From: Barnesiella sp.
GTDB lineage: Bacteria > Bacteroidota > Bacteroidia > Bacteroidales > Muribaculaceae
Reading direction: 5' to 3'
Length of the DNA stretch: 64,000 nt
Assembly: GCA_014801075.1 (NCBI GenBank)
Contig: JAAVEW010000020.1
Coordinates: 94,037-158,036 of the forward strand
Every line of letters begins with the position of its first letter. Within the stretch, counting starts at the first letter, position 1. Positions 1 through 6,553 of this stretch are shown one piece after another. The position numbers and the translations under genes are program-made. The notes under the pieces are model-generated. The model did not search any database, had not been told where the DNA came from, and saw only the letters and a list, made by a program, of their open reading frames with translations.

Positions 1-408
1 ATTCTTGATTTTGACCATGTGGAATTTATCGTCAACGGCGTCAAAGTATCATTCTATGCCAACCCCAATCATTCGCCTGTGCAGCAGGTAGTTCAATATA
101 TGAATAATATCAGATTGGCAGATATGCTGTCGATTGGTGCAATGAAGATGGAAGTAATGCTGCGCAGAAGTAAATTCAGGGACTACTATGATATATATTC
201 TCTTATAGAGGCCGGAATAAATATATCGGATATGGTAAATCTCGCGCTGAAGTATTCCGGTCATAAGTTGAAGTCCAAGAATTTATTGGCTATGCTGACG
301 CGATCAGAAAGATTCCAGCCCGATAGTAATTTTGCGGCCCTGGAGCCGATCTATGATATAACCCCCAAAGATATAGAAGAGAGAATCAAAAGAGCACTCG
401 CTGATTGA
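1..408 (+). CDS. AbiEii-family nucleotidyltransferase (type IV TA/Abi toxin), C-terminal part, 5'-truncated by window
   Basis: Frame is open from base 1 (ILDFDHVEF...). The motif IGAMKMEVMLRRSKFRDYYDIYSL matches the K...R...RDxYD signature of the AbiEii family. Confidence 0.7.
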   Translation: MLDFDHVEFIVNGVKVSFYANPNHSPVQQVVQYMNNIRLADMLSIGAMKMEVMLRRSKFRDYYDIYSLIEAGINISDMVNLALKYSGHKLKSKNLLAMLTRSERFQPDSNFAALEPIYDITPKDIEERIKRALAD

Positions 409-634
409 TAAACTCGCAGCTGAGTCGATGGTTTTTCGTGCGGTTTCGGTGTGAGGAAGTTGGTCAGGCCTGTTGGGTATGGTGAGCTGTTGGCGAGGAT
501 GGGTCTGCTATTATAGAAATCAGTGAGGGTGAGTTTTGGTGTGGGGTGAGGGTTTGTCGTGGGGTTTTTCGGGAATTGGTGAATTGTTGTGAAGATTGTT
601 TGGGGGGGGAGGGGTGAATTATTGTGGGAATATT

Positions 635-666
635 TTTGTTTTTTTGGGGAATTGCTTTTAATTTTG
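635..666 (+). promoter_or_regulatory. Bacteroidetes sigma-70 promoter upstream of the structured leader
   Basis: TTTG (635-638), 20 nt, then TAATTTTG (659-666). Confidence 0.5.
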
Positions 667-669
667 TGG

Positions 670-1160
670 CGCATCTATGTACGCGGAAGCCCTTTAGAGG
701 TGGGAATGCGGACGGGATGCATTGAAATTTTATGTAAAAGGCGTTTATCCAACGCTACGTTCTTCGCGATTCAGAACTTCGCAACTTCATGTATCCGATT
801 GAAGGACATAGCAACGATAGATGTCCCGTGGATATGATTATCGTAATCATAGCCGGTAGTTTACGTAATGGTACACTCCCACAGCGGGGGTGGCATGTTG
901 CGTAATCGTGCGTATCCCGGAAACAGGATGCGGACCGATTCATACTACCACGCTATGATGGTCAGTTCTTTGTTCTATACAAAGAATTATCATATTCGGG
1001 CGTGGGCTTCTGCGTTGCTCGTTCACTAATCGGAAACGGCAATGCGAAGGCCATGAATCGCAGTGGGCGAGCAATAGATAGAGTTTCCCACGTCTTTTTG
1101 TATTCCTGAATTAATAATCCATGCGTCCGCACAGGGGAACTGCGGGGGCGCTTTTATTGT
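670..1160 (+). ncRNA. Candidate long structured RNA / 5' leader of the GTPase cluster
   Basis: No credible ORF. At least 7 stems: 804-809/821-826, 833-840/844-851, 855-860/944-949, 911-917/926-932, 966-973/979-986, 999-1006/1087-1094, 1015-1027/1062-1074. Several carry G-U pairs on the + strand. Confidence 0.45.
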
Positions 1161-1169
1161 CCAAGGGAT

Positions 1170-2261
1170 ATGAGACAGACCAATTACGTAAAGATTTTCT
1201 CTTTTCTTGCATTCTTGCTTTTCGGTGGCGTAAGTTGCTGGGCTACTGCCGAGTCACTTCACATGCTTTTGGCCTCGTGGCCTAAAATTTTCTGTTACCT
1301 CGTTGCGATAGGTTTCTTTGTAGTGGCCTCAATCGGCACGAAACTTATTGTTGACTCGCTCAATCAGAAAATCTATATCGAGGGGCGCACCGGCAAACTT
1401 ATCGGCGGCATCATACTGGTGCTGATATTCTGGCTTGCCACTTCGATGCCCACCAATACACATACCTTTATCTACCGCAATGTCATATCGGAGCGCGTCA
1501 ACAATGACGTGGACGTGACGATGGGCTACCTCGAAGATGTGGTTAAAAACACTGTTAATGAGGAAAACTGCGCGGCCATGATTGCCGAACGTGTAGCTAT
1601 AGTCAAAGGGTATCAGAACCGACTGATGACGGAAGTGAACCAGCCCAACGACCCCGGAAGCGGACCCCGCGCCGAAAATATCCTCAAAGAACTCGAAACG
1701 AAATACGGCTACCGCATAGAGCGTTATCGTCCCGGCGGAAAGAATGAGGGACTGCGCGAAGTCAATCAGGCTATCGACTTCTATAATGCTCAGTTCAATA
1801 ACCTTATCAACAATATCATCCCCAACTATTATCAGGAGAAGATGGTAAGACCTAACGAAACGAATCTCGATCAGGCTATGGCAGCTTACGAAGGGCTTGC
1901 TGACCTGAAAGATAAGATTGAGGCAGGAAGAAAGGCAAAGGGTTCGGCAAAGGGTAACGCCATCAGCCTTAACAGTGCCGAGGATATGCATGACATAGTG
2001 ATACCCCGTATCAACACCGGTTATCAGGCAGTCAGCAGCAATCATGGACTGGTAAGATTCCGTTCAGGCGATGAAGCCAAGTACAGAGCCGACCCCGTGG
2101 TTACCGAAACCCAGCGTATGACAAGTATTTTTGAAGTGTGGGGCGACTACATGGCCGGCAAGTTCAACGGTCACGGTTTCTTCTGGTGGATACTGCTCGC
2201 AGTTCTCATAGACATCGCCGCCTTCATATTCTTTGATATAGCATTTAAAAAGAGCTACTGA
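1170..2261 (+). CDS. Membrane protein (3 N-terminal TM helices, helical soluble region, C-terminal TM; DUF4407-like topology)
   Basis: 363 aa ORF with hydrophobic segments at the N-terminus and FFWWILLAVLIDIAAFIFF at the C-terminus. The family name is inferred from topology only. Confidence 0.7.
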   Translation: MRQTNYVKIFSFLAFLLFGGVSCWATAESLHMLLASWPKIFCYLVAIGFFVVASIGTKLIVDSLNQKIYIEGRTGKLIGGIILVLIFWLATSMPTNTHTFIYRNVISERVNNDVDVTMGYLEDVVKNTVNEENCAAMIAERVAIVKGYQNRLMTEVNQPNDPGSGPRAENILKELETKYGYRIERYRPGGKNEGLREVNQAIDFYNAQFNNLINNIIPNYYQEKMVRPNETNLDQAMAAYEGLADLKDKIEAGRKAKGSAKGNAISLNSAEDMHDIVIPRINTGYQAVSSNHGLVRFRSGDEAKYRADPVVTETQRMTSIFEVWGDYMAGKFNGHGFFWWILLAVLIDIAAFIFFDIAFKKSY

Positions 2262-2368
2262 TACATCAACTGATACATTAAGTTATATATAGCGTAAAAA
2301 TTTTTCAATTAGCAGAATTGATAAAACCAATCTTATTTTAATCGCAAATCATTAATCAATAATATATT

Positions 2369-3313
2369 ATGGCAAAATTTGAATTTGACGAAATGAATCG
2401 TCCTGACGATAATACCACTTCCGCCCCCGTAAGCGAGCCCGCGCAGCCTTCGGCATCCGCTCAGCCTGCCCCCAACACTTCCATACAGGGTCTCACCCAG
2501 AATGAACTTAACGACCCCAACGCAATACAGATAGTGTTGCAGAATCCCGATATACCCATTGTGGTGTTTTTCGGACCGCCTACCTGCGGCAAGACCATGA
2601 CACTGATACGCCTGTCGCGCTATCTGTTGCAGAACGGCTACTCCGTGACACCCGTGCGCTCGTTCCGCCCCGGTTACGATGAGCATTATAAGAAAATGTG
2701 CGACGACTTCAATATTATGATAAACAGTAATATAGCGCAGGAGGGTACCAACTTCATCAGCTTCATGCTCGTGGAGGTGTCATACAATGGCCGTCCGCTC
2801 TGTCAGATACTTGAAGCGCCCGGCGAGCATTATTTCAAACCGAGCAATCCCAATGCACCCTTCCCCGCTTATATAAATACTATCAGCTCGTCGTCCAACC
2901 GCAAGCTGTGGGGATTTTTCATCGAGCCTGACCACACCAACAGCCAGCTGGAGAACTCTGATCGACTCAACTATGTGAACCGCATAGGTCGTTTCAAGTC
3001 CTACATGCATCCGCGCGACAGAGTGGCCGTCATTTTCAACAAGATTGACCAGACCAACACTGTACTCAACATCGGTACGGCCAACAACTCGCTGGCCTTT
3101 CAGCTCGCCAACTACACCTATCCCGGCCTGTTCAAGCTTTTTGCCAACGAGAACCCCATCACGAAGTTTTTCAAACCTACGCGTGCGGCGTTCGTGCCCT
3201 ATATGAACGGTTACTTCACCGACCTCCAGAGTGGAGGCAGGTCTTTCCAGATCGGGCATGACAACTATCCCCGCAATCTTTGGGGCATAATTACCAAATC
3301 AATAAAGGGTTAA
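2369..3313 (+). CDS. TRAFAC-class GTPase-domain protein
   Basis: G1 GPPTCGKT, G3-like EAPGE, G4 NKID. Confidence 0.75.
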   Translation: MAKFEFDEMNRPDDNTTSAPVSEPAQPSASAQPAPNTSIQGLTQNELNDPNAIQIVLQNPDIPIVVFFGPPTCGKTMTLIRLSRYLLQNGYSVTPVRSFRPGYDEHYKKMCDDFNIMINSNIAQEGTNFISFMLVEVSYNGRPLCQILEAPGEHYFKPSNPNAPFPAYINTISSSSNRKLWGFFIEPDHTNSQLENSDRLNYVNRIGRFKSYMHPRDRVAVIFNKIDQTNTVLNIGTANNSLAFQLANYTYPGLFKLFANENPITKFFKPTRAAFVPYMNGYFTDLQSGGRSFQIGHDNYPRNLWGIITKSIKG

Positions 3314-3315
3314 GT

Positions 3316-5076
3316 ATGGCAATAAATATTATAGTCCACGGCGTTACCACCGGGTTTGACACCAACGAGAGTAATTACCCGCCATTCATTCAGAGTTTCT
3401 ATAACCGACCGAACGGTGAGTCATACTTCATAGCCGAGATACTGCGCGATGCAACGGGAGTGAAAAGTTGCTACACGCTCTATATGTCGAACAATGTGTC
3501 AAATTATAGCAACCGCGCCGGTTCATACTTCGGTATATCGGTGATAATCGACAACAATGCTTGTCTCGATGTCAAGGCACTCTACAGTGCTTTGTTATCG
3601 ACATTCAGTAACTCCATAGTGGGCACGGTGCTCGAAAAGCAGGGGAGCGGCTACCGCTACAAGGTGGGTAGCTTTGCCGCGGCCGCCGATATTATTAATA
3701 CTGCTGTAGAGAAGCTCTTCGGCCAGATACAGAACACATTGAAGACTTCGCATGCACCGATTGACAGTACCTATCACCTGAGTTCGGGCAATCTGTCGGA
3801 CTGGAATCCCGCCGACCTGACCGACAGCGATGTCAACAAGATTATAAAAAGAGACGGAGGTATCAAGCTGTCAAACGAATATCCCATGCAGGCGCAGAAG
3901 AAACTGCTTGACGAGGAGCGTCGCAAGCGACAGCAGGATGCTGAGGCTGCCCATGCCGAAATGGAGCGGCAGAAAGCCCTCGCCGAGAAGCGACTGGCCG
4001 AGGAACGCGAACGCGCCGCGCGGCAGGCAAAGCAATTGACCGATGAGGTAAAGGCTACGGCCGACCGCATCACGCGTGAGAGCCGCGAGAAAGTGCGTGC
4101 CGTAGAAAACAGGTTTGGCGCTGAAATCGCTGACCTTCGTGACCAATTGGCCAAGAAGGATGACGTAATACGCAGCTACAATGACGAGTACGTGAAATTG
4201 GCCACATCCATTGAGCAGCTCAACAAACGTATCGCCGACCATCAGGCTGACGGCTATAAGGGCTACGGCTCAGAGATGAAACGCCTTGCCGACGGTTACA
4301 GCGGCCTTAGCGAAAGAATTGCAACGCTCGAGACAAAGGGCGTGGGCCGCACTACAGCTGCTCCCGTCGACGGAGGCGGACAGCCCCCGGTCCCTAAACC
4401 CAATCCTCACCGCGGCGGCGACAGTAAGAAACTATATCTGATTCTTGGAGGCGTCATACTGGTGATACTGATAGCTCTTATTGTGATTTTCGCAAGTGGC
4501 GAGTCATCTGACAACTCGAATGAGAATCCCGCTGAACAAGAGCAAATCAAGCCCTCGGACGACAACCGTAAAGTCGATAATGGCGGTAAAATAGACAAAG
4601 ACGACAAGGACGACAAAGGCGGCAGTACCGGCGACTTAGGTAACATTTGGGGCAATTCGCAGGATCAGTTGCCGGTTGACCAGGATGGAAGCAATGGATA
4701 TGAGGCGTTGGAGGACCCGGGAAGTCTGTATGACGGTGCATATCCGTTGCCCATTGAGATGCTGAATGAAATAAAAATTACCATCAGTGACAAACTTTAC
4801 GGTGGAAATAGAAAAATCTCTTTAAGAAAGGCCTCCATTCAGGAGCTGATTAAGGAGGCTTTGCCTAATAAGAGATGCGAAGTTGTAGTGTCATATCCTG
4901 ATGGCACGGCTGTTTATTCGGAAGATATCCGGGGATATGAATTTCAGTGTGATTTTAAACCTGAAGGGTTAATGAGTCATTCCCATGGAGGCACCTATAA
5001 TGATTATCAGGTGAGAATGATTTATGACTTCGGAACATTCGAGCGTAAGAATAATGAGACCACCTTTATCCCCTGA
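3316..5076 (+). CDS. GTPase-associated membrane protein (globular N-domain, coiled coil, single TM, acidic C-domain)
   Basis: Start taken at MAINII (3316), just after the GTPase stop. Charged coiled coil, then TM LYLILGGVILVILIALIVIFA. Confidence 0.65.
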   Translation: MAINIIVHGVTTGFDTNESNYPPFIQSFYNRPNGESYFIAEILRDATGVKSCYTLYMSNNVSNYSNRAGSYFGISVIIDNNACLDVKALYSALLSTFSNSIVGTVLEKQGSGYRYKVGSFAAAADIINTAVEKLFGQIQNTLKTSHAPIDSTYHLSSGNLSDWNPADLTDSDVNKIIKRDGGIKLSNEYPMQAQKKLLDEERRKRQQDAEAAHAEMERQKALAEKRLAEERERAARQAKQLTDEVKATADRITRESREKVRAVENRFGAEIADLRDQLAKKDDVIRSYNDEYVKLATSIEQLNKRIADHQADGYKGYGSEMKRLADGYSGLSERIATLETKGVGRTTAAPVDGGGQPPVPKPNPHRGGDSKKLYLILGGVILVILIALIVIFASGESSDNSNENPAEQEQIKPSDDNRKVDNGGKIDKDDKDDKGGSTGDLGNIWGNSQDQLPVDQDGSNGYEALEDPGSLYDGAYPLPIEMLNEIKITISDKLYGGNRKISLRKASIQELIKEALPNKRCEVVVSYPDGTAVYSEDIRGYEFQCDFKPEGLMSHSHGGTYNDYQVRMIYDFGTFERKNNETTFIP

Positions 5077-5089
5077 CACCGTAGATTGT

Positions 5090-6553
5090 ATGAATATTTC
5101 AGTATATGTATTTAAGAAGGTCGGGAGGGAAACGGGAGCTAAAGTGGAATCCTTCCCGACCGCTCTTGACAAGGGGACGCAGAAGGTTGTCGGCGATATC
5201 AGAATCGAGGGCGAGAGGAACGCCGCCCTCGTGGTGAGGCGCAATGGCAATCTGATGTATTATATCTATGCAGTCAATGTTGACGATGATATATTCGGGT
5301 TTATATTTATAGTGAATAATGCCTATCTTGCGCATGTGGATTCGTTGAGTCGCTTCTGCAGCGATATGATAGGCACGATAGCCGCCCGACACTTGCTTCT
5401 GAAATGGTCGTCGGCGGGTCAGCTGTGCTTTACCGACTCTCGATTCGTGAAGTGTAGCGACGAGGCGAGTCAGGTGTTGATGCGTCTTGAAGAGATACGC
5501 AACGTGTCGGTGTTCAACAAGGCAATCGCGCTCCCTCTGCTCGACTATGGTGCTGAGACCAAGCACGTTGTTATGAATTGTTGGAATTCACAAGAGCTGC
5601 CTGCCATACCGCAGAGCCACCGTCAGGTGGAGGTTGTGGAGATGCGGCTGCCGAAAGTCGATTTCCACGTGGCGGACGTGATACACTCGCTGCACGATAC
5701 CAACCTCTCGTGGGAAAAACAGTATGATGAACTGACGGAGAAATATACCAGACTCAGTAATCAGAAGAAGAGGATGAAATGGGTGATAATCCTCGGTTTG
5801 TGCATGGTGGCCGGCGGTGTGGTGCTGTTTGCCGTGAACAAGAATCTGAAACGTACGCAGTCAAATCTGAGCGAAGCACATACAGCTATCGACAGCCTGT
5901 CGGTGGAGAAAGCTGTTTTAATCTCCGACGTGGATAAACTGTATAATGTCTCCGAAATATACAGTAATGAAATAAAGTCATTGAAATCGGACTATATTAC
6001 GGCCATTGACAGGATATCATATCTGGAGTCAAAAATGCCGGTTGAGGTGACTTCAATGAGGTTGATTTATATTTGTGACGGTTATTCTTATTCCGGAGGG
6101 ACGCCGGTCAAGGATCAGGTAAGCGCCATCAGTTTTGATGTCAAATACAAGGTCAGCCGATTCAAGGGAGTCGATATTTCGAAATACCCTTCGGTGGAAC
6201 TCTACCGTCCGGCCCGGTATGACCTTAAGGAGCAGGAAGCAAATGCCAATCTTATTGAAGAAGAGCAGCCGGAAATACAGGCAGAAGCTGAGTCTGCAGA
6301 TTGCTCTCGACCTAAACAATTGTATCTTGCTTTGAGATGTTATTACAAACCGTATTCTTCAGGTTCATTGGATTATGTTCTGAAAGGGGTATACGGTTTT
6401 ACACTTAATATCTCTTCCAGCAGTAGCGGGTCTGTCAGTACGCCGTCGTTCAGCATGGGCTTCACTAAATTCCCCGCAGGGGCTTATCGCATAGAACTAT
6501 GGGATACGTGGGAGAACAAGTGTATGTATTATACTGTTTTCACTATAAGTTAA
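5090..6553 (+). CDS. Second GTPase-associated membrane protein (N-domain, coiled coil, TM, C-domain)
   Basis: Start taken at MNISVYVF (5090). TM WVIILGLCMVAGGVVLFAV is flanked by coiled coils; same layout as 3316-5076. Confidence 0.65.
   Translation: MNISVYVFKKVGRETGAKVESFPTALDKGTQKVVGDIRIEGERNAALVVRRNGNLMYYIYAVNVDDDIFGFIFIVNNAYLAHVDSLSRFCSDMIGTIAARHLLLKWSSAGQLCFTDSRFVKCSDEASQVLMRLEEIRNVSVFNKAIALPLLDYGAETKHVVMNCWNSQELPAIPQSHRQVEVVEMRLPKVDFHVADVIHSLHDTNLSWEKQYDELTEKYTRLSNQKKRMKWVIILGLCMVAGGVVLFAVNKNLKRTQSNLSEAHTAIDSLSVEKAVLISDVDKLYNVSEIYSNEIKSLKSDYITAIDRISYLESKMPVEVTSMRLIYICDGYSYSGGTPVKDQVSAISFDVKYKVSRFKGVDISKYPSVELYRPARYDLKEQEANANLIEEEQPEIQAEAESADCSRPKQLYLALRCYYKPYSSGSLDYVLKGVYGFTLNISSSSSGSVSTPSFSMGFTKFPAGAYRIELWDTWENKCMYYTVFTIS

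What the first reader, a model, noticed from the sequence alone, without database searches (positions are those of the whole stretch)
670..1160. ~480-nt highly structured RNA leader in front of a defence-like GTPase operon
Seen: between a consensus promoter (635-666) and the ATG at 1170 there is no credible ORF, but a run of nested stems. These are GGACAT/ATGTCC (804/821), TATGATTA/TAATCATA (833/844), a multibranch closed by GGTAGT/ACTACC (855/944), CGTATCC-GAAA-containing loop-GGATGCG, TTCTTTGT/ACAAAGAA, and a long arm GGCGTGGG/CCCACGTC enclosing TTGCTCGTTCACT/AGTGGGCGAGCAA. G-U pairs favour the + strand. A final hairpin (1113-1151) sits just before the start codon. Inference: a large cis-regulatory or stand-alone ncRNA co-transcribed with the operon, possibly an RNA component of the system.
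Basis: partly seen in the sequence, partly recalled or inferred. Interest (0 to 1): 0.65.

Follow-up and report, generated by a model that had tools for sequence, protein, structure and literature searches.

The report
Multi-state terminator leader RNA, Bacteroidales
The flagged stretch encodes a real, roughly 430-base, intricately folded RNA that sits between the only promoter and a four-gene operon, can fold in at least two mutually exclusive ways around a built-in stop signal, and belongs to a leader-RNA family of gut Bacteroidales that I did not find in Rfam or in the papers searched.

Summary
Region 671-1169 (+) folds far better than shuffles (z -6.5) and much better than its complement. 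It has no conserved ORF and lies behind a Bacteroidetes-type promoter (TTTG 635-638, TAATTTTG 659-666).

Segment 736-838 pairs along its whole length with 989-1098, forming a long rod. A variable, structured insert (839-988; 37-150 nt in relatives) sits at its tip.

The same strands can also form two separate hairpins. The 3' hairpin (998-1095 plus U-run 1095-1099) is a canonical intrinsic terminator. Both folds are kept in ten relatives, with compensatory changes.

Three further conserved pairings exist:
- the 5' hairpin arm against the terminator's 5' strand;
- a downstream hairpin loop against a rod bulge;
- an anti-SD/SD helix.

The two rod strands are 89-99% identical between genomes whose neighbouring gene is only 71-80% identical. 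Sequencing contigs of a relative cover only promoter-to-terminator, so early termination looks like the default.

There is no Rfam match. The core also occurs before an unrelated gene.

Verdict: a cis-acting multi-state attenuator, not a component specific to the GTPase system. The trigger is unknown.

The parts
635..666 (+). Bacteroidetes-type promoter: -33 TTTG (635-638) and -7 TAATTTTG (659-666). Predicted start near G671.
   Evidence: Sequence read. A -7 box TAnnTTTG is kept at the same place in the relatives. It is the only + strand box before the operon. RNA-like contigs of a relative begin about 12-15 nt after the predicted start.
671..720 (+). D1: a 5' hairpin at the very start of the transcript. 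Its 5' arm (681-692, ACGCGGAAGCCC) is complementary to the terminator's 5' strand (1004-1015).
   Evidence: A 5' hairpin is predicted independently in nine sequences. Arm complementarity runs 12-18 contiguous bp in six Muribaculaceae-type sequences (0-4 of 300 shuffles), and L009 keeps 12 bp through changed letters. 91% of cells are paired against 40-63% when slid.
736..838 (+). R5, the 5' strand of the rod. It has three parts: segment 1 (736-765, including the small hairpin 740-756), the rod-only middle K5 (766-801), and segment 2 (801-838).
   Evidence: MFE helices. 89-96% identical to relatives whose CDS is 71-80% identical. On its own it folds as a hairpin, -27.8 kcal/mol.
839..988 (+). 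Variable apical insert: a multi-hairpin domain at the tip of the rod.
   Evidence: Sequence is unrelated and length is 37-150 nt in relatives. Metagenome contigs show other 112-128-nt fillers between identical flanks. Each long insert is strongly structured on its own: z -6.4, -3.1, -4.3, -5.5, -4.0, -1.9.
989..1099 (+). R3, the 3' strand of the rod. It has segment 3 (989-1027), K3 (1027-1061), segment 4 (1062-1094) and the U-run (1095-1099). On its own it folds into the terminator hairpin 998-1006:1087-1095, 1008-1012:1079-1083, 1014-1027:1062-1075.
   Evidence: The R3-alone fold is -43.4 kcal/mol and -42 to -43 kcal/mol in seven relatives. 95-99% identical to relatives. A U-run follows in the relatives. 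Covariance model R1 scores 111.5 bits here. Contigs of a relative end at the stem just before the U-run.
1083..1089 (+). GUUUCCC: a bulge in the rod and part of the terminator's 3' strand. It is complementary to the loop of the last hairpin.
   Evidence: Pairing with 1134-1140 is kept in 93% of cells (helix 11). L015 has CGGCUCUC:GAGAGUCG at the same places. Read by eye from the sequences: L021 GUUCCC/GGGAAC and L024 GGCUCC/GGUAGCC.
1100..1107 (+). Anti-SD segment GUAUUCCU. It pairs with the SD-like AAGG and the start codon (1164-1171).
   Evidence: The helix is kept through changed letters: L001 ACCUUAAU:AUUAAGGU, L002 UAUCCUUA:UAAGGAUA, L012 CGUAUUCCU:AGGAAUAUG.
1123..1151 (+). H3: the last hairpin, with conserved loop AGGGGAAC (GGGGAAC = 1134-1140) and a covarying stem.
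   Evidence: Helix 15 has 4 of 5 pairs with changes on both sides.
1164..1172 (+). SD-like AGGGAUAUG, including the start codon (ATG 1170) of the first operon gene (1170-2261).
   Evidence: AAGG sits 5-8 nt before the ATG in the Muribaculaceae-type relatives and in L015 and L017. It is absent in L021 and L024.

Best explanation
This is a cis-acting transcription-attenuating leader RNA. It belongs to a widespread family of gut Bacteroidales that I could not find described.

Transcription starts near 671 and must cross the leader to reach the operon. Four strands are mutually complementary: 1 = 736-765, 2 = 801-838, 3 = 989-1027, 4 = 1062-1094. They can therefore form either of two folds:
- a single long rod (1:4 and 2:3, joined by the rod-only helices 766-801:1027-1061);
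- two hairpins (1:2 and 3:4).

The 3:4 hairpin, followed by U1095-1099, is an intrinsic terminator. The base of the rod (GGCGU 740-744 : ACGUC 1090-1094) also abuts the U-run.

Shown: both folds are conserved, and the leader of a relative accumulates as a promoter-to-terminator piece.

Inferred: termination is the default and yields a stable RNA of about 430 nt. Read-through happens when strand 4 is left without a partner. The best candidate route is that the 5' hairpin D1 opens and its arm (681-692) captures strand 3 (1004-1015), while 1:2 re-forms. This needs a trigger I cannot identify. It could be a protein, an RNA or a kinetic signal acting on D1 or on the small hairpin 740-756.

Read-through transcripts carry a second lock: anti-SD 1100-1107 pairs with the SD and AUG at 1164-1171. 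They also carry a loop-bulge contact (1134-1140 with 1083-1089) that may set translation.
For: Structure:
- z -6.5 on the + strand.
- The rod is the MFE in nine relatives folded independently.
- Rod on alignment A2: 82.5% of cells paired against about 43% when slid; 32 pairs changed on both sides against 18.1 +/- 2.7 in shuffles (0 of 500).
- Example of compensation: GCGAUUCA:UGAAUCGC becomes CUGCUUGA:UCAAGCAG (L015), ACGCUAAG:CUUAGCGU (L021) and ACGAUGUAA:UUACAUCGU (L024), and ACGAUCGAU:AUCGAUCGU in L009 (read).
- Two-hairpin fold: 90.3% paired against about 45% when slid; 16 double-change cells against 5.9 +/- 1.8 (0 of 500).

Terminator:
- The terminator hairpin is -42 to -43 kcal/mol in seven relatives, each followed by a U-run.

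Link to the operon:
- There is no other promoter box before the operon.

Conservation:
- The multi-partner strands are 89-99% identical where the CDS is 71-80% identical.
- The single-partner helices covary freely, as expected if the frozen strands each serve several pairings.

D1 arm and strand 3:
-.
- When that pairing is forced, 1:2 re-forms in all three sequences. Strand 4's terminator end is left unpaired in the window and L002, but re-pairs in L012.

Transcripts:
- In runs X28 and X30, contigs at up to 84x cover only L001 133/137-513/516, that is start to terminator stem.
- X29 has a shorter piece inside the leader (202-493).
- X27 runs on 32 nt into the CDS.
- Nothing lies on the rest of the operon.
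- Two labelled RNA libraries hold leader-only contigs of relatives.

Association:
- A rod leader with a terminator stands directly before the homologous operon in 11 lineages sampled with enough upstream DNA, across Muribaculaceae, Barnesiella, Parabacteroides and Prevotella-type loci. A twelfth lineage, L017, shows only the last 108 nt.
Against: - No transcript ends were measured in this organism, and no sequencing run of it was found.
- The runs with the clearest leader-only contigs have no library type on record, so calling them RNA is an inference from the missing flanks.
- Both folds place a helix next to the U-run, so the rod/two-hairpin exchange alone does not explain an on/off decision.
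- The proposed read-through state lies 17-25 kcal/mol above the rod in a nested-structure model.
- The D1 pairing rests on conserved complementarity with only one compensatory case. It is absent in L024 and is in a different register in L021.
- Any two of the three strand pairings largely imply the third, so the data cannot say which are directly selected.
- The trigger is unknown.
Confidence: 0.62

Rival explanations
1. It is a stand-alone, stable rod-shaped non-coding RNA gene (promoter to terminator, about 430 nt) whose real job is in trans, for example titrating a protein or pairing with other transcripts. The operon is expressed only by incidental read-through.
For: Leader-only contigs at high depth with nothing on the operon. 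The 5' and 3' ends are paired at the rod base, AAAAGGCGU:ACGUCUUUU, as in many stable RNAs. The family core also occurs without a co-oriented downstream gene in L008.
Against: The operon has no promoter box of its own. The leader stays glued to the same operon across four genera while upstream neighbours change. The conserved anti-SD/SD helix and the loop-bulge contact lie beyond the terminator and make sense only in read-through mRNA.
Confidence: 0.15
2. It is a factor-dependent antitermination unit like phage lambda PR'-6S RNA-tR'. The RNA is essentially a constitutive short transcript ending at a strong terminator. A protein loaded on RNA polymerase (Q-like or NusG-like) gives read-through, and RNA refolding is not the sensor.
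For: Default termination. Both folds put a helix at the U-run. Bacteroides are known to use specialised NusG paralogs in capsule-operon leaders (PMC11685472).
Against: It does not explain why two exclusive folds, a 5' arm complementary to the terminator strand, and about 210 nt of near-invariant sequence are all maintained. No NusG-like or Q-like gene lies in the cassette; Pfam found nothing in the four ORFs.
Confidence: 0.12
3. It is a riboswitch: part of the RNA (for example the conserved GGCAAUGCGAAGGCC / GAACUUCGCAA internal loops, or D1) binds a small molecule that shifts the fold.
For: It has alternative folds around a terminator and some invariant unpaired nucleotides.
Against: There is no Rfam match. 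The downstream genes are not metabolic and differ between family members. Most invariant positions are in helices with several partners rather than in a junction-type pocket. The largest domain, the insert, is not conserved at all.
Confidence: 0.06
4. It is an RNA subunit or guide of the downstream GTPase system.
For: It is strictly adjacent to the operon in all sampled lineages.
Against: The family core stands before an unrelated gene and beside integrases. It is spread over many other contigs in metagenomes. Prevotella-type orthologous operons use a leader of different sequence. Earlier notes of this scan place look-alike leaders before many unrelated genes (leads only).
Confidence: 0.03

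Closest known systems
Classical four-segment terminator/antiterminator attenuators (trp-type leaders, 1:2 / 2:3 / 3:4)
   Same: It has four mutually complementary segments, and 3:4 plus a U-run acts as the terminator. 1:2 and 2:3 are alternative pairings. It lies in a 5' leader that is the only route into the operon.
   Different: There is no conserved leader peptide. Segment 1 also pairs with 4, so the alternative to the two hairpins is one continuous rod of about 100 bp. Segments 2 and 3 are separated by a 37-150-nt variable domain. A fifth strand (the D1 arm) competes for segment 3. The whole is about 430 nt rather than about 140 nt.
Riboswitch expression platforms and T-box leaders (a large sensor domain in front of a terminator/antiterminator)
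   Same: A long structured leader with mutually exclusive folds that decide termination. A second level of control acts at the ribosome-binding site.
   Different: No aptamer or T-box model matches. There is no coherent metabolic regulon, and no specifier or T-box sequence was tested positive.
Phage lambda PR' - 6S RNA - tR' unit
   Same: A promoter makes a short terminated RNA by default. The genes behind it are expressed only when termination is overcome.
   Different: In lambda the decision is made by protein Q on the polymerase. Here conserved alternative RNA folds suggest that the RNA takes part in the decision.
Capsule-operon leaders of Bacteroides with UpxY (NusG paralog) and ops-like pause sites (PMC11685472)
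   Same: It is in the same phylum, and control of accessory operons takes place in the transcribed leader.
   Different: Those leaders work through non-template DNA and pause hairpins recognised by a locus-encoded UpxY. No UpxY or UpxZ gene is present here, and the RNA is far larger.
The 'rod-shaped / two-state leader RNA of Bacteroidales' noted repeatedly by earlier agents of this scan (unpublished AI notes)
   Same: Its own TAnnTTTG promoter, a long rod, a built-in terminator, a kissing loop, and a position before accessory genes. It is absent from Rfam.
   Different: This copy is larger (about 430 nt against 235-310 nt) because of the 150-nt apical insert and the D1 hairpin. Sequence overlap with those windows is small, 2-4 of 30 short words.

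Membership tests
   There were no matches in the whole window. With permissive filters on 380-1300 the only hit was a chance miRNA match, E 1.5. No family matched the leaders of six diverged relatives.
trp-type four-segment attenuator | Alternative pairings 1:2, 2:3 and 3:4, with 3:4 followed by a U-run | tested here: met
   Both pairing sets are conserved.
trp-type four-segment attenuator | A translated leader peptide overlapping segment 1 that senses charged tRNA | tested here: not met
   There is no conserved ORF. The AUG-UAA at 731-736 and the ATG-789 frame are not kept in L001 or L002.
Riboswitch | A conserved ligand-binding aptamer, and a regulon tied to one metabolite | tested here: inconclusive
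   No known aptamer matched. Downstream genes are non-metabolic and vary across family members. Ligand binding itself cannot be tested with these tools.
Intrinsic (Rho-independent) terminator | A stable GC-rich stem directly followed by a U-run, with transcript 3' ends there | tested here: met
   Stem 998-1006:1087-1095 plus UUUUU 1095-1099, kept in relatives. Contigs of a relative end 3-9 nt before the U-run. That is indirect evidence, because the library type is not on record.
Undescribed Bacteroidales rod-leader family (this scan's earlier notes) | Own TAnnTTTG promoter, long rod, terminator at the rod base, kissing loop, and a position before varied accessory genes | tested here: met
   Promoter. 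Rod and terminator. Loop-bulge contact. Core before another gene in viral contigs. Direct sequence comparison with the earlier windows was not possible beyond shared short words.
RNA subunit of the GTPase/longin cassette | Occurs only with that cassette and co-varies with it | tested here: not met
   The core is found apart from the cassette. Orthologous cassettes carry a different leader type.

The most novel reading that the evidence does not exclude
The leader is a strand-exchange device with at least three states, and its 'on' state is set by a shared key. The terminator's 5' strand is GGGCUUCUGCG in most family members seen here, with close variants in L015, L024 and L009. It is matched by an 11-18-nt complement (CGCAGAAGCCC) that most copies keep locked in their own 5' hairpin. 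Anything that exposes such a key could switch on many accessory, surface and defence operons of a gut Bacteroidales cell together. The key-bearer could be a protein opening D1, a dedicated small RNA, or the abundant terminated leader RNAs of other copies acting in trans. The freely covarying middle helices would act as per-copy addresses that keep folding in cis.
Probability: 0.1. Interest if true: 0.85.

Novelty: new variant of a known kind. Interest (0 to 1): 0.62.

Why it matters
Bacteroidales dominate the mammalian gut. Little is known about how they keep horizontally acquired surface, capsule and defence operons silent and then switch them on.

A large, abundant, multi-state RNA gate that travels with such operons would be a new class of riboregulator for this phylum. 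It would point to an unknown trigger, possibly linked to phage attack or envelope stress. It would also offer a compact, portable control part for engineering Bacteroides.

The extreme conservation of about 210 nt, explained here by each base serving two or three alternative pairings, is also a clean natural example of how multi-state RNAs freeze their sequence.

Tried and rejected
I could therefore not count copies in the window's own genome, nor run a model over relatives.
- A 20-mer of the core scanned against metagenome contigs gave only three chance hits inside coding regions.
- BLAST of the leader against the plasmid and phage collections gave nothing.
- The RNA-run search with the long stretch found nothing.
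- Small-ORF readings were rejected because the frames are not conserved.
- RNAalifold on a mixed alignment of the two leader types failed to recover the known stem because of misalignment. I therefore supplied structures by hand.
- RNAduplex between D1 and R3 was uninformative because long interior loops gave shuffle-level energies. I replaced it with an ungapped-run test.
- A search of the window for a second copy of the key, the K5 segment or the small hairpin found only chance-level hits.
- Model R1 found no second family copy in the 64-kb window.
- Five full-text searches found no description of the family.
- A DNA-level reading (cruciform or mobile-element end) was rejected. The folds have strand-specific G-U pairs, the unit is bounded by a promoter and a terminator, and it appears as leader-only contigs.

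Full report
**What is at the coordinates**

Region 409-1169 lies between the end of an AbiEii-type fragment (1-408) and the ATG at 1170. It holds no conserved ORF.

A Bacteroidetes-type promoter is present: TTTG at 635-638 and TAATTTTG at 659-666. It is the only + strand TAnnTTTG box before the operon, and the next one is at 2126. Transcription of the four ORFs at 1170-6553 must therefore pass through the flagged stretch.

The + strand 670-1169 folds to -194.8 kcal/mol, against -148.8 +/- 7.0 for dinucleotide shuffles (z -6.53). The complement reaches only -150.1. Rfam 15 has no match, at gathering thresholds or with permissive filters.

**Relatives**

- A genome scan gave L001 (a Muribaculaceae MAG) and L002 (Barnesiella).
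- A protein search gave 1331 homologues.
- Twelve look-ups of where they are encoded gave L010-L030.

Every lineage has a structured leader directly upstream, while the upstream neighbour differs each time. Neighbours include DUF2400, a TPR protein, ORF6N, an aldo-keto reductase, a HipA-type pair, RecR, an acetyltransferase and an M13 peptidase. Promoter, leader and operon therefore travel as one unit.

The alignments show four zones:
- two nearly invariant blocks (window 736-838 and 989-1098);
- a middle part that shares no sequence and varies from 37 to 150 nt;
- a covarying 5' hairpin;
- a last hairpin with a conserved loop.

Gut metagenome contigs show the same two blocks with yet other 112-128-nt fillers. 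They also hold many further contigs that match only the core 1000-1052.

**The main structure is a rod**

The MFE pairs 736-838 with 989-1098 over the whole length. The insert 839-988 forms its own multi-hairpin tip. Nine relatives folded independently give the same architecture.

On alignment A2 (ten sequences, inserts masked):
- 82.5% of cells are paired, against about 43% when partners are slid;
- 32 pairs show changes on both sides, against 18.1 +/- 2.7 in shuffles (0 of 500);
- the covariation score is 0.185, against 0.132.

The clearest compensations are in the middle helices (except where noted):

| Window helix | L015 | L021 | L024 | L009 (read) |
|---|---|---|---|---|
| GCGAUUCA:UGAAUCGC | CUGCUUGA:UCAAGCAG | ACGCUAAG:CUUAGCGU | ACGAUGUAA:UUACAUCGU | ACGAUCGAU:AUCGAUCGU |
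| UCCGAUUG:UAAUCGGA | GGUAAAGU:AUUUUACC | UCAAGUC:GACUUGA | CUGAUAGU:ACUAUCAG | not listed |

**A second, exclusive fold is also conserved**

On its own, 736-838 folds into a hairpin of -27.8 kcal/mol: 740-749:816-825, 754-757:809-812 and 759-765:801-807.

On its own, 989-1100 folds into a hairpin of -43.4 kcal/mol: 998-1006:1087-1095, 1008-1012:1079-1083 and 1014-1027:1062-1075. This hairpin is followed by UUUUU at 1095-1099.

On A2 this two-hairpin fold has 90.3% of cells paired, against about 45% when slid. It has 16 double-change cells, against 5.9 +/- 1.8 (0 of 500).

Up to the U-run, the rod is 9-18 kcal/mol more stable than the two-hairpin state in seven relatives. The leader is therefore a four-strand system (1:2 + 3:4 against 1:4 + 2:3), plus rod-only helices in the middle.

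This explains the conservation pattern:
- the multi-partner strands are 89-99% identical between genomes whose adjoining CDS is 71-80% identical;
- the single-partner middle helices covary freely;
- the partner-less insert is replaced altogether, yet each long insert is strongly structured (z down to -6.4).

**Further conserved pairings**

(a) The 5' arm of hairpin D1 (681-692, ACGCGGAAGCCC) is complementary to strand 3 (1004-1015, GGGCUUCUGCGU).
- The run is 12-18 contiguous bp in the six Muribaculaceae-type sequences (0-4 of 300 shuffles).
- L009 keeps 12 bp through changed letters, CCGAAAGCCCCG:UGGGGCUUUCGG.
- L015 has 9 bp, L021 has 10 bp in another register, and L024 has none.
- On A2, 91% of cells pair against 40-63% when slid, but with only one compensatory case.
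- If this pairing is forced, 1:2 re-forms in the window, L012 and L002. Strand 4's terminator end is left unpaired in the window and L002, but re-pairs in L012. The cost is 17-25 kcal/mol in a nested model.

(b) The loop of the last hairpin (GGGGAAC, 1134-1140) is complementary to GUUUCCC (1083-1089). That segment is a bulge in the rod and part of the terminator stem. 93% of cells pair, and L015 has CGGCUCUC:GAGAGUCG instead.

(c) GUAUUCCU (1100-1107) pairs with AGGGAUAU (1164-1171), covering an SD-like AAGG and the start codon. The helix is kept through changed letters in L001, L002, L011, L012 and L014.

**Transcripts**

No run of this organism was found.

I laid four runs of one study (library type not on record) on L001.
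- X28 and X30 each gave a single contig covering only 133/137-513/516. That runs from about 12 nt after the predicted start to the terminator stem just before the U-run.
- X29 gave a shorter piece inside the leader (202-493).
- Depths ranged from 7 to 84.
- Nothing lay upstream or on the operon.
- X27 extended 32 nt into the CDS.

In DNA data at such depth the flanks would be present, so I read these as RNA. On that reading, termination is the prevailing outcome and some read-through occurs. Two labelled RNA libraries also hold leader-only contigs of relatives. This is indirect evidence: contigs rather than reads, and a relative rather than the window.

**Family and specificity**

A covariance model of the terminator hairpin (R1) finds:
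- one copy in the 64-kb window (111.5 bits);
- all cassette-linked copies;
- three copies in viral contigs (42-49 bits);
- the Prevotella-type leaders weakly (23 bits).

In L006 the core precedes an unrelated 661-aa ORF. In L008 it sits beside an integrase without a co-oriented gene.

The Prevotella-type cassettes (L018, L027, L029) have leaders of different sequence but the same logic. GGUUCACGCU, GGCGUGAACU and GGUU(C/A)CACGCC act as strands 2, 3 and 4. A U-run follows, and a helix covers the start region.

Earlier notes of this scan describe look-alike rod or two-state leaders before many unrelated accessory genes in more than 30 genomes. I treat these as leads that agree with what I found, not as evidence.

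Five full-text searches found no published description. The nearest Bacteroides precedent for control within a leader is UpxY at capsule operons.

**Mechanism, with what is shown and what is inferred**

Shown:
- a promoter-to-terminator unit through which the operon must be transcribed;
- two conserved, mutually exclusive folds;
- a canonical terminator;
- conserved anti-SD and loop-bulge pairings;
- leader-sized contigs in sequencing data.

Inferred: during synthesis, D1 and 1:2 form first. Strand 3 then either zips onto strand 2 from the insert-proximal toehold (830-838:989-997), giving the rod, or waits for strand 4. In both cases a helix closes next to the U-run and transcription stops, leaving a stable RNA of about 430 nt with paired ends.

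Read-through needs strand 4 to be left without a partner. The best candidate is capture of strand 3 by the D1 arm while 1:2 holds strand 1. Read-through mRNA then still has its ribosome site masked. The loop-bulge contact, available only when GUUUCCC is free, may decide whether that mask holds.

The trigger is unknown. Rivals are listed with their tests: a trans-acting stable RNA, factor-only antitermination of the lambda 6S type, a riboswitch, and a subunit of the GTPase system.

**Verdict**

It is a new variant, in a family I could not find described, of the known terminator/antiterminator kind. It is unusual in its size, its four-to-five-strand exchange design, its interchangeable apical domain and its extreme sequence conservation.

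Noticed in passing
window 409-660: The spacer between the AbiEii fragment and the promoter is a G+T-rich tract almost free of C. GC skew reaches +0.91 at 550-649. L014 has a similar GT-rich tract upstream of its leader. Its function is unknown. On the minus strand it would read as a C/A-rich, Rho-loading-like sequence.
   Followed up: partly
window 822-837 and 1158-1173: The end of rod strand 2 (TGTCCCGTGGATATGA) and the SD/start region (TGTCCAAGGGATATGA) are 81% identical direct repeats. Likewise, AUCAUAUUC (989-997) resembles the anti-SD UGUAUUCCU. The ribosome-site helix may be a copy of the helix that closes the insert, which would allow further partner swaps.
   Followed up: no
window 731-736: A minimal AUG-UAA start-stop sits just before rod strand 1. 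It is not kept in L001 or L002, so it is probably chance.
   Followed up: yes
window 1164-1167 and relatives: An SD-like AAGG lies 5-8 nt before the start codon in the Muribaculaceae-type copies and in L015 and L017. This is unusual for Bacteroidales, which rarely use SD pairing. Here it is the target of the masking helix.
   Followed up: partly
L006 6407-6506 (-) and L008 5836-5937 (+): These viral-contig copies hold the terminator half but lack the 5' rod strand seen in L009. They lie next to a tyrosine integrase gene, and L008 has no co-oriented gene behind it. They are possibly decayed or truncated leaders at mobile-element borders.
   Followed up: partly
L009 3390-3427 (-): An abiF RNA motif (Rfam RF03085, 52.7 bits) lies just upstream of, and divergent from, the leader's promoter in this viral contig.
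   Followed up: no
window 1-408: The window starts inside an AbiEii-type nucleotidyltransferase toxin gene, of which only the C-terminal 135 aa are present. In the other lineages the upstream neighbour is different, so the juxtaposition with the cassette is not conserved.
   Followed up: yes
window 766-801 / 1027-1061 and relatives: The two variable middle helices flank an invariant one (CUUCGCA:UGCGAAG). Every diverged family member carries a different pair of sequences there, which would keep several copies in one cell from pairing with each other. Whether this is selection for orthogonality or simple drift is open.
   Followed up: no
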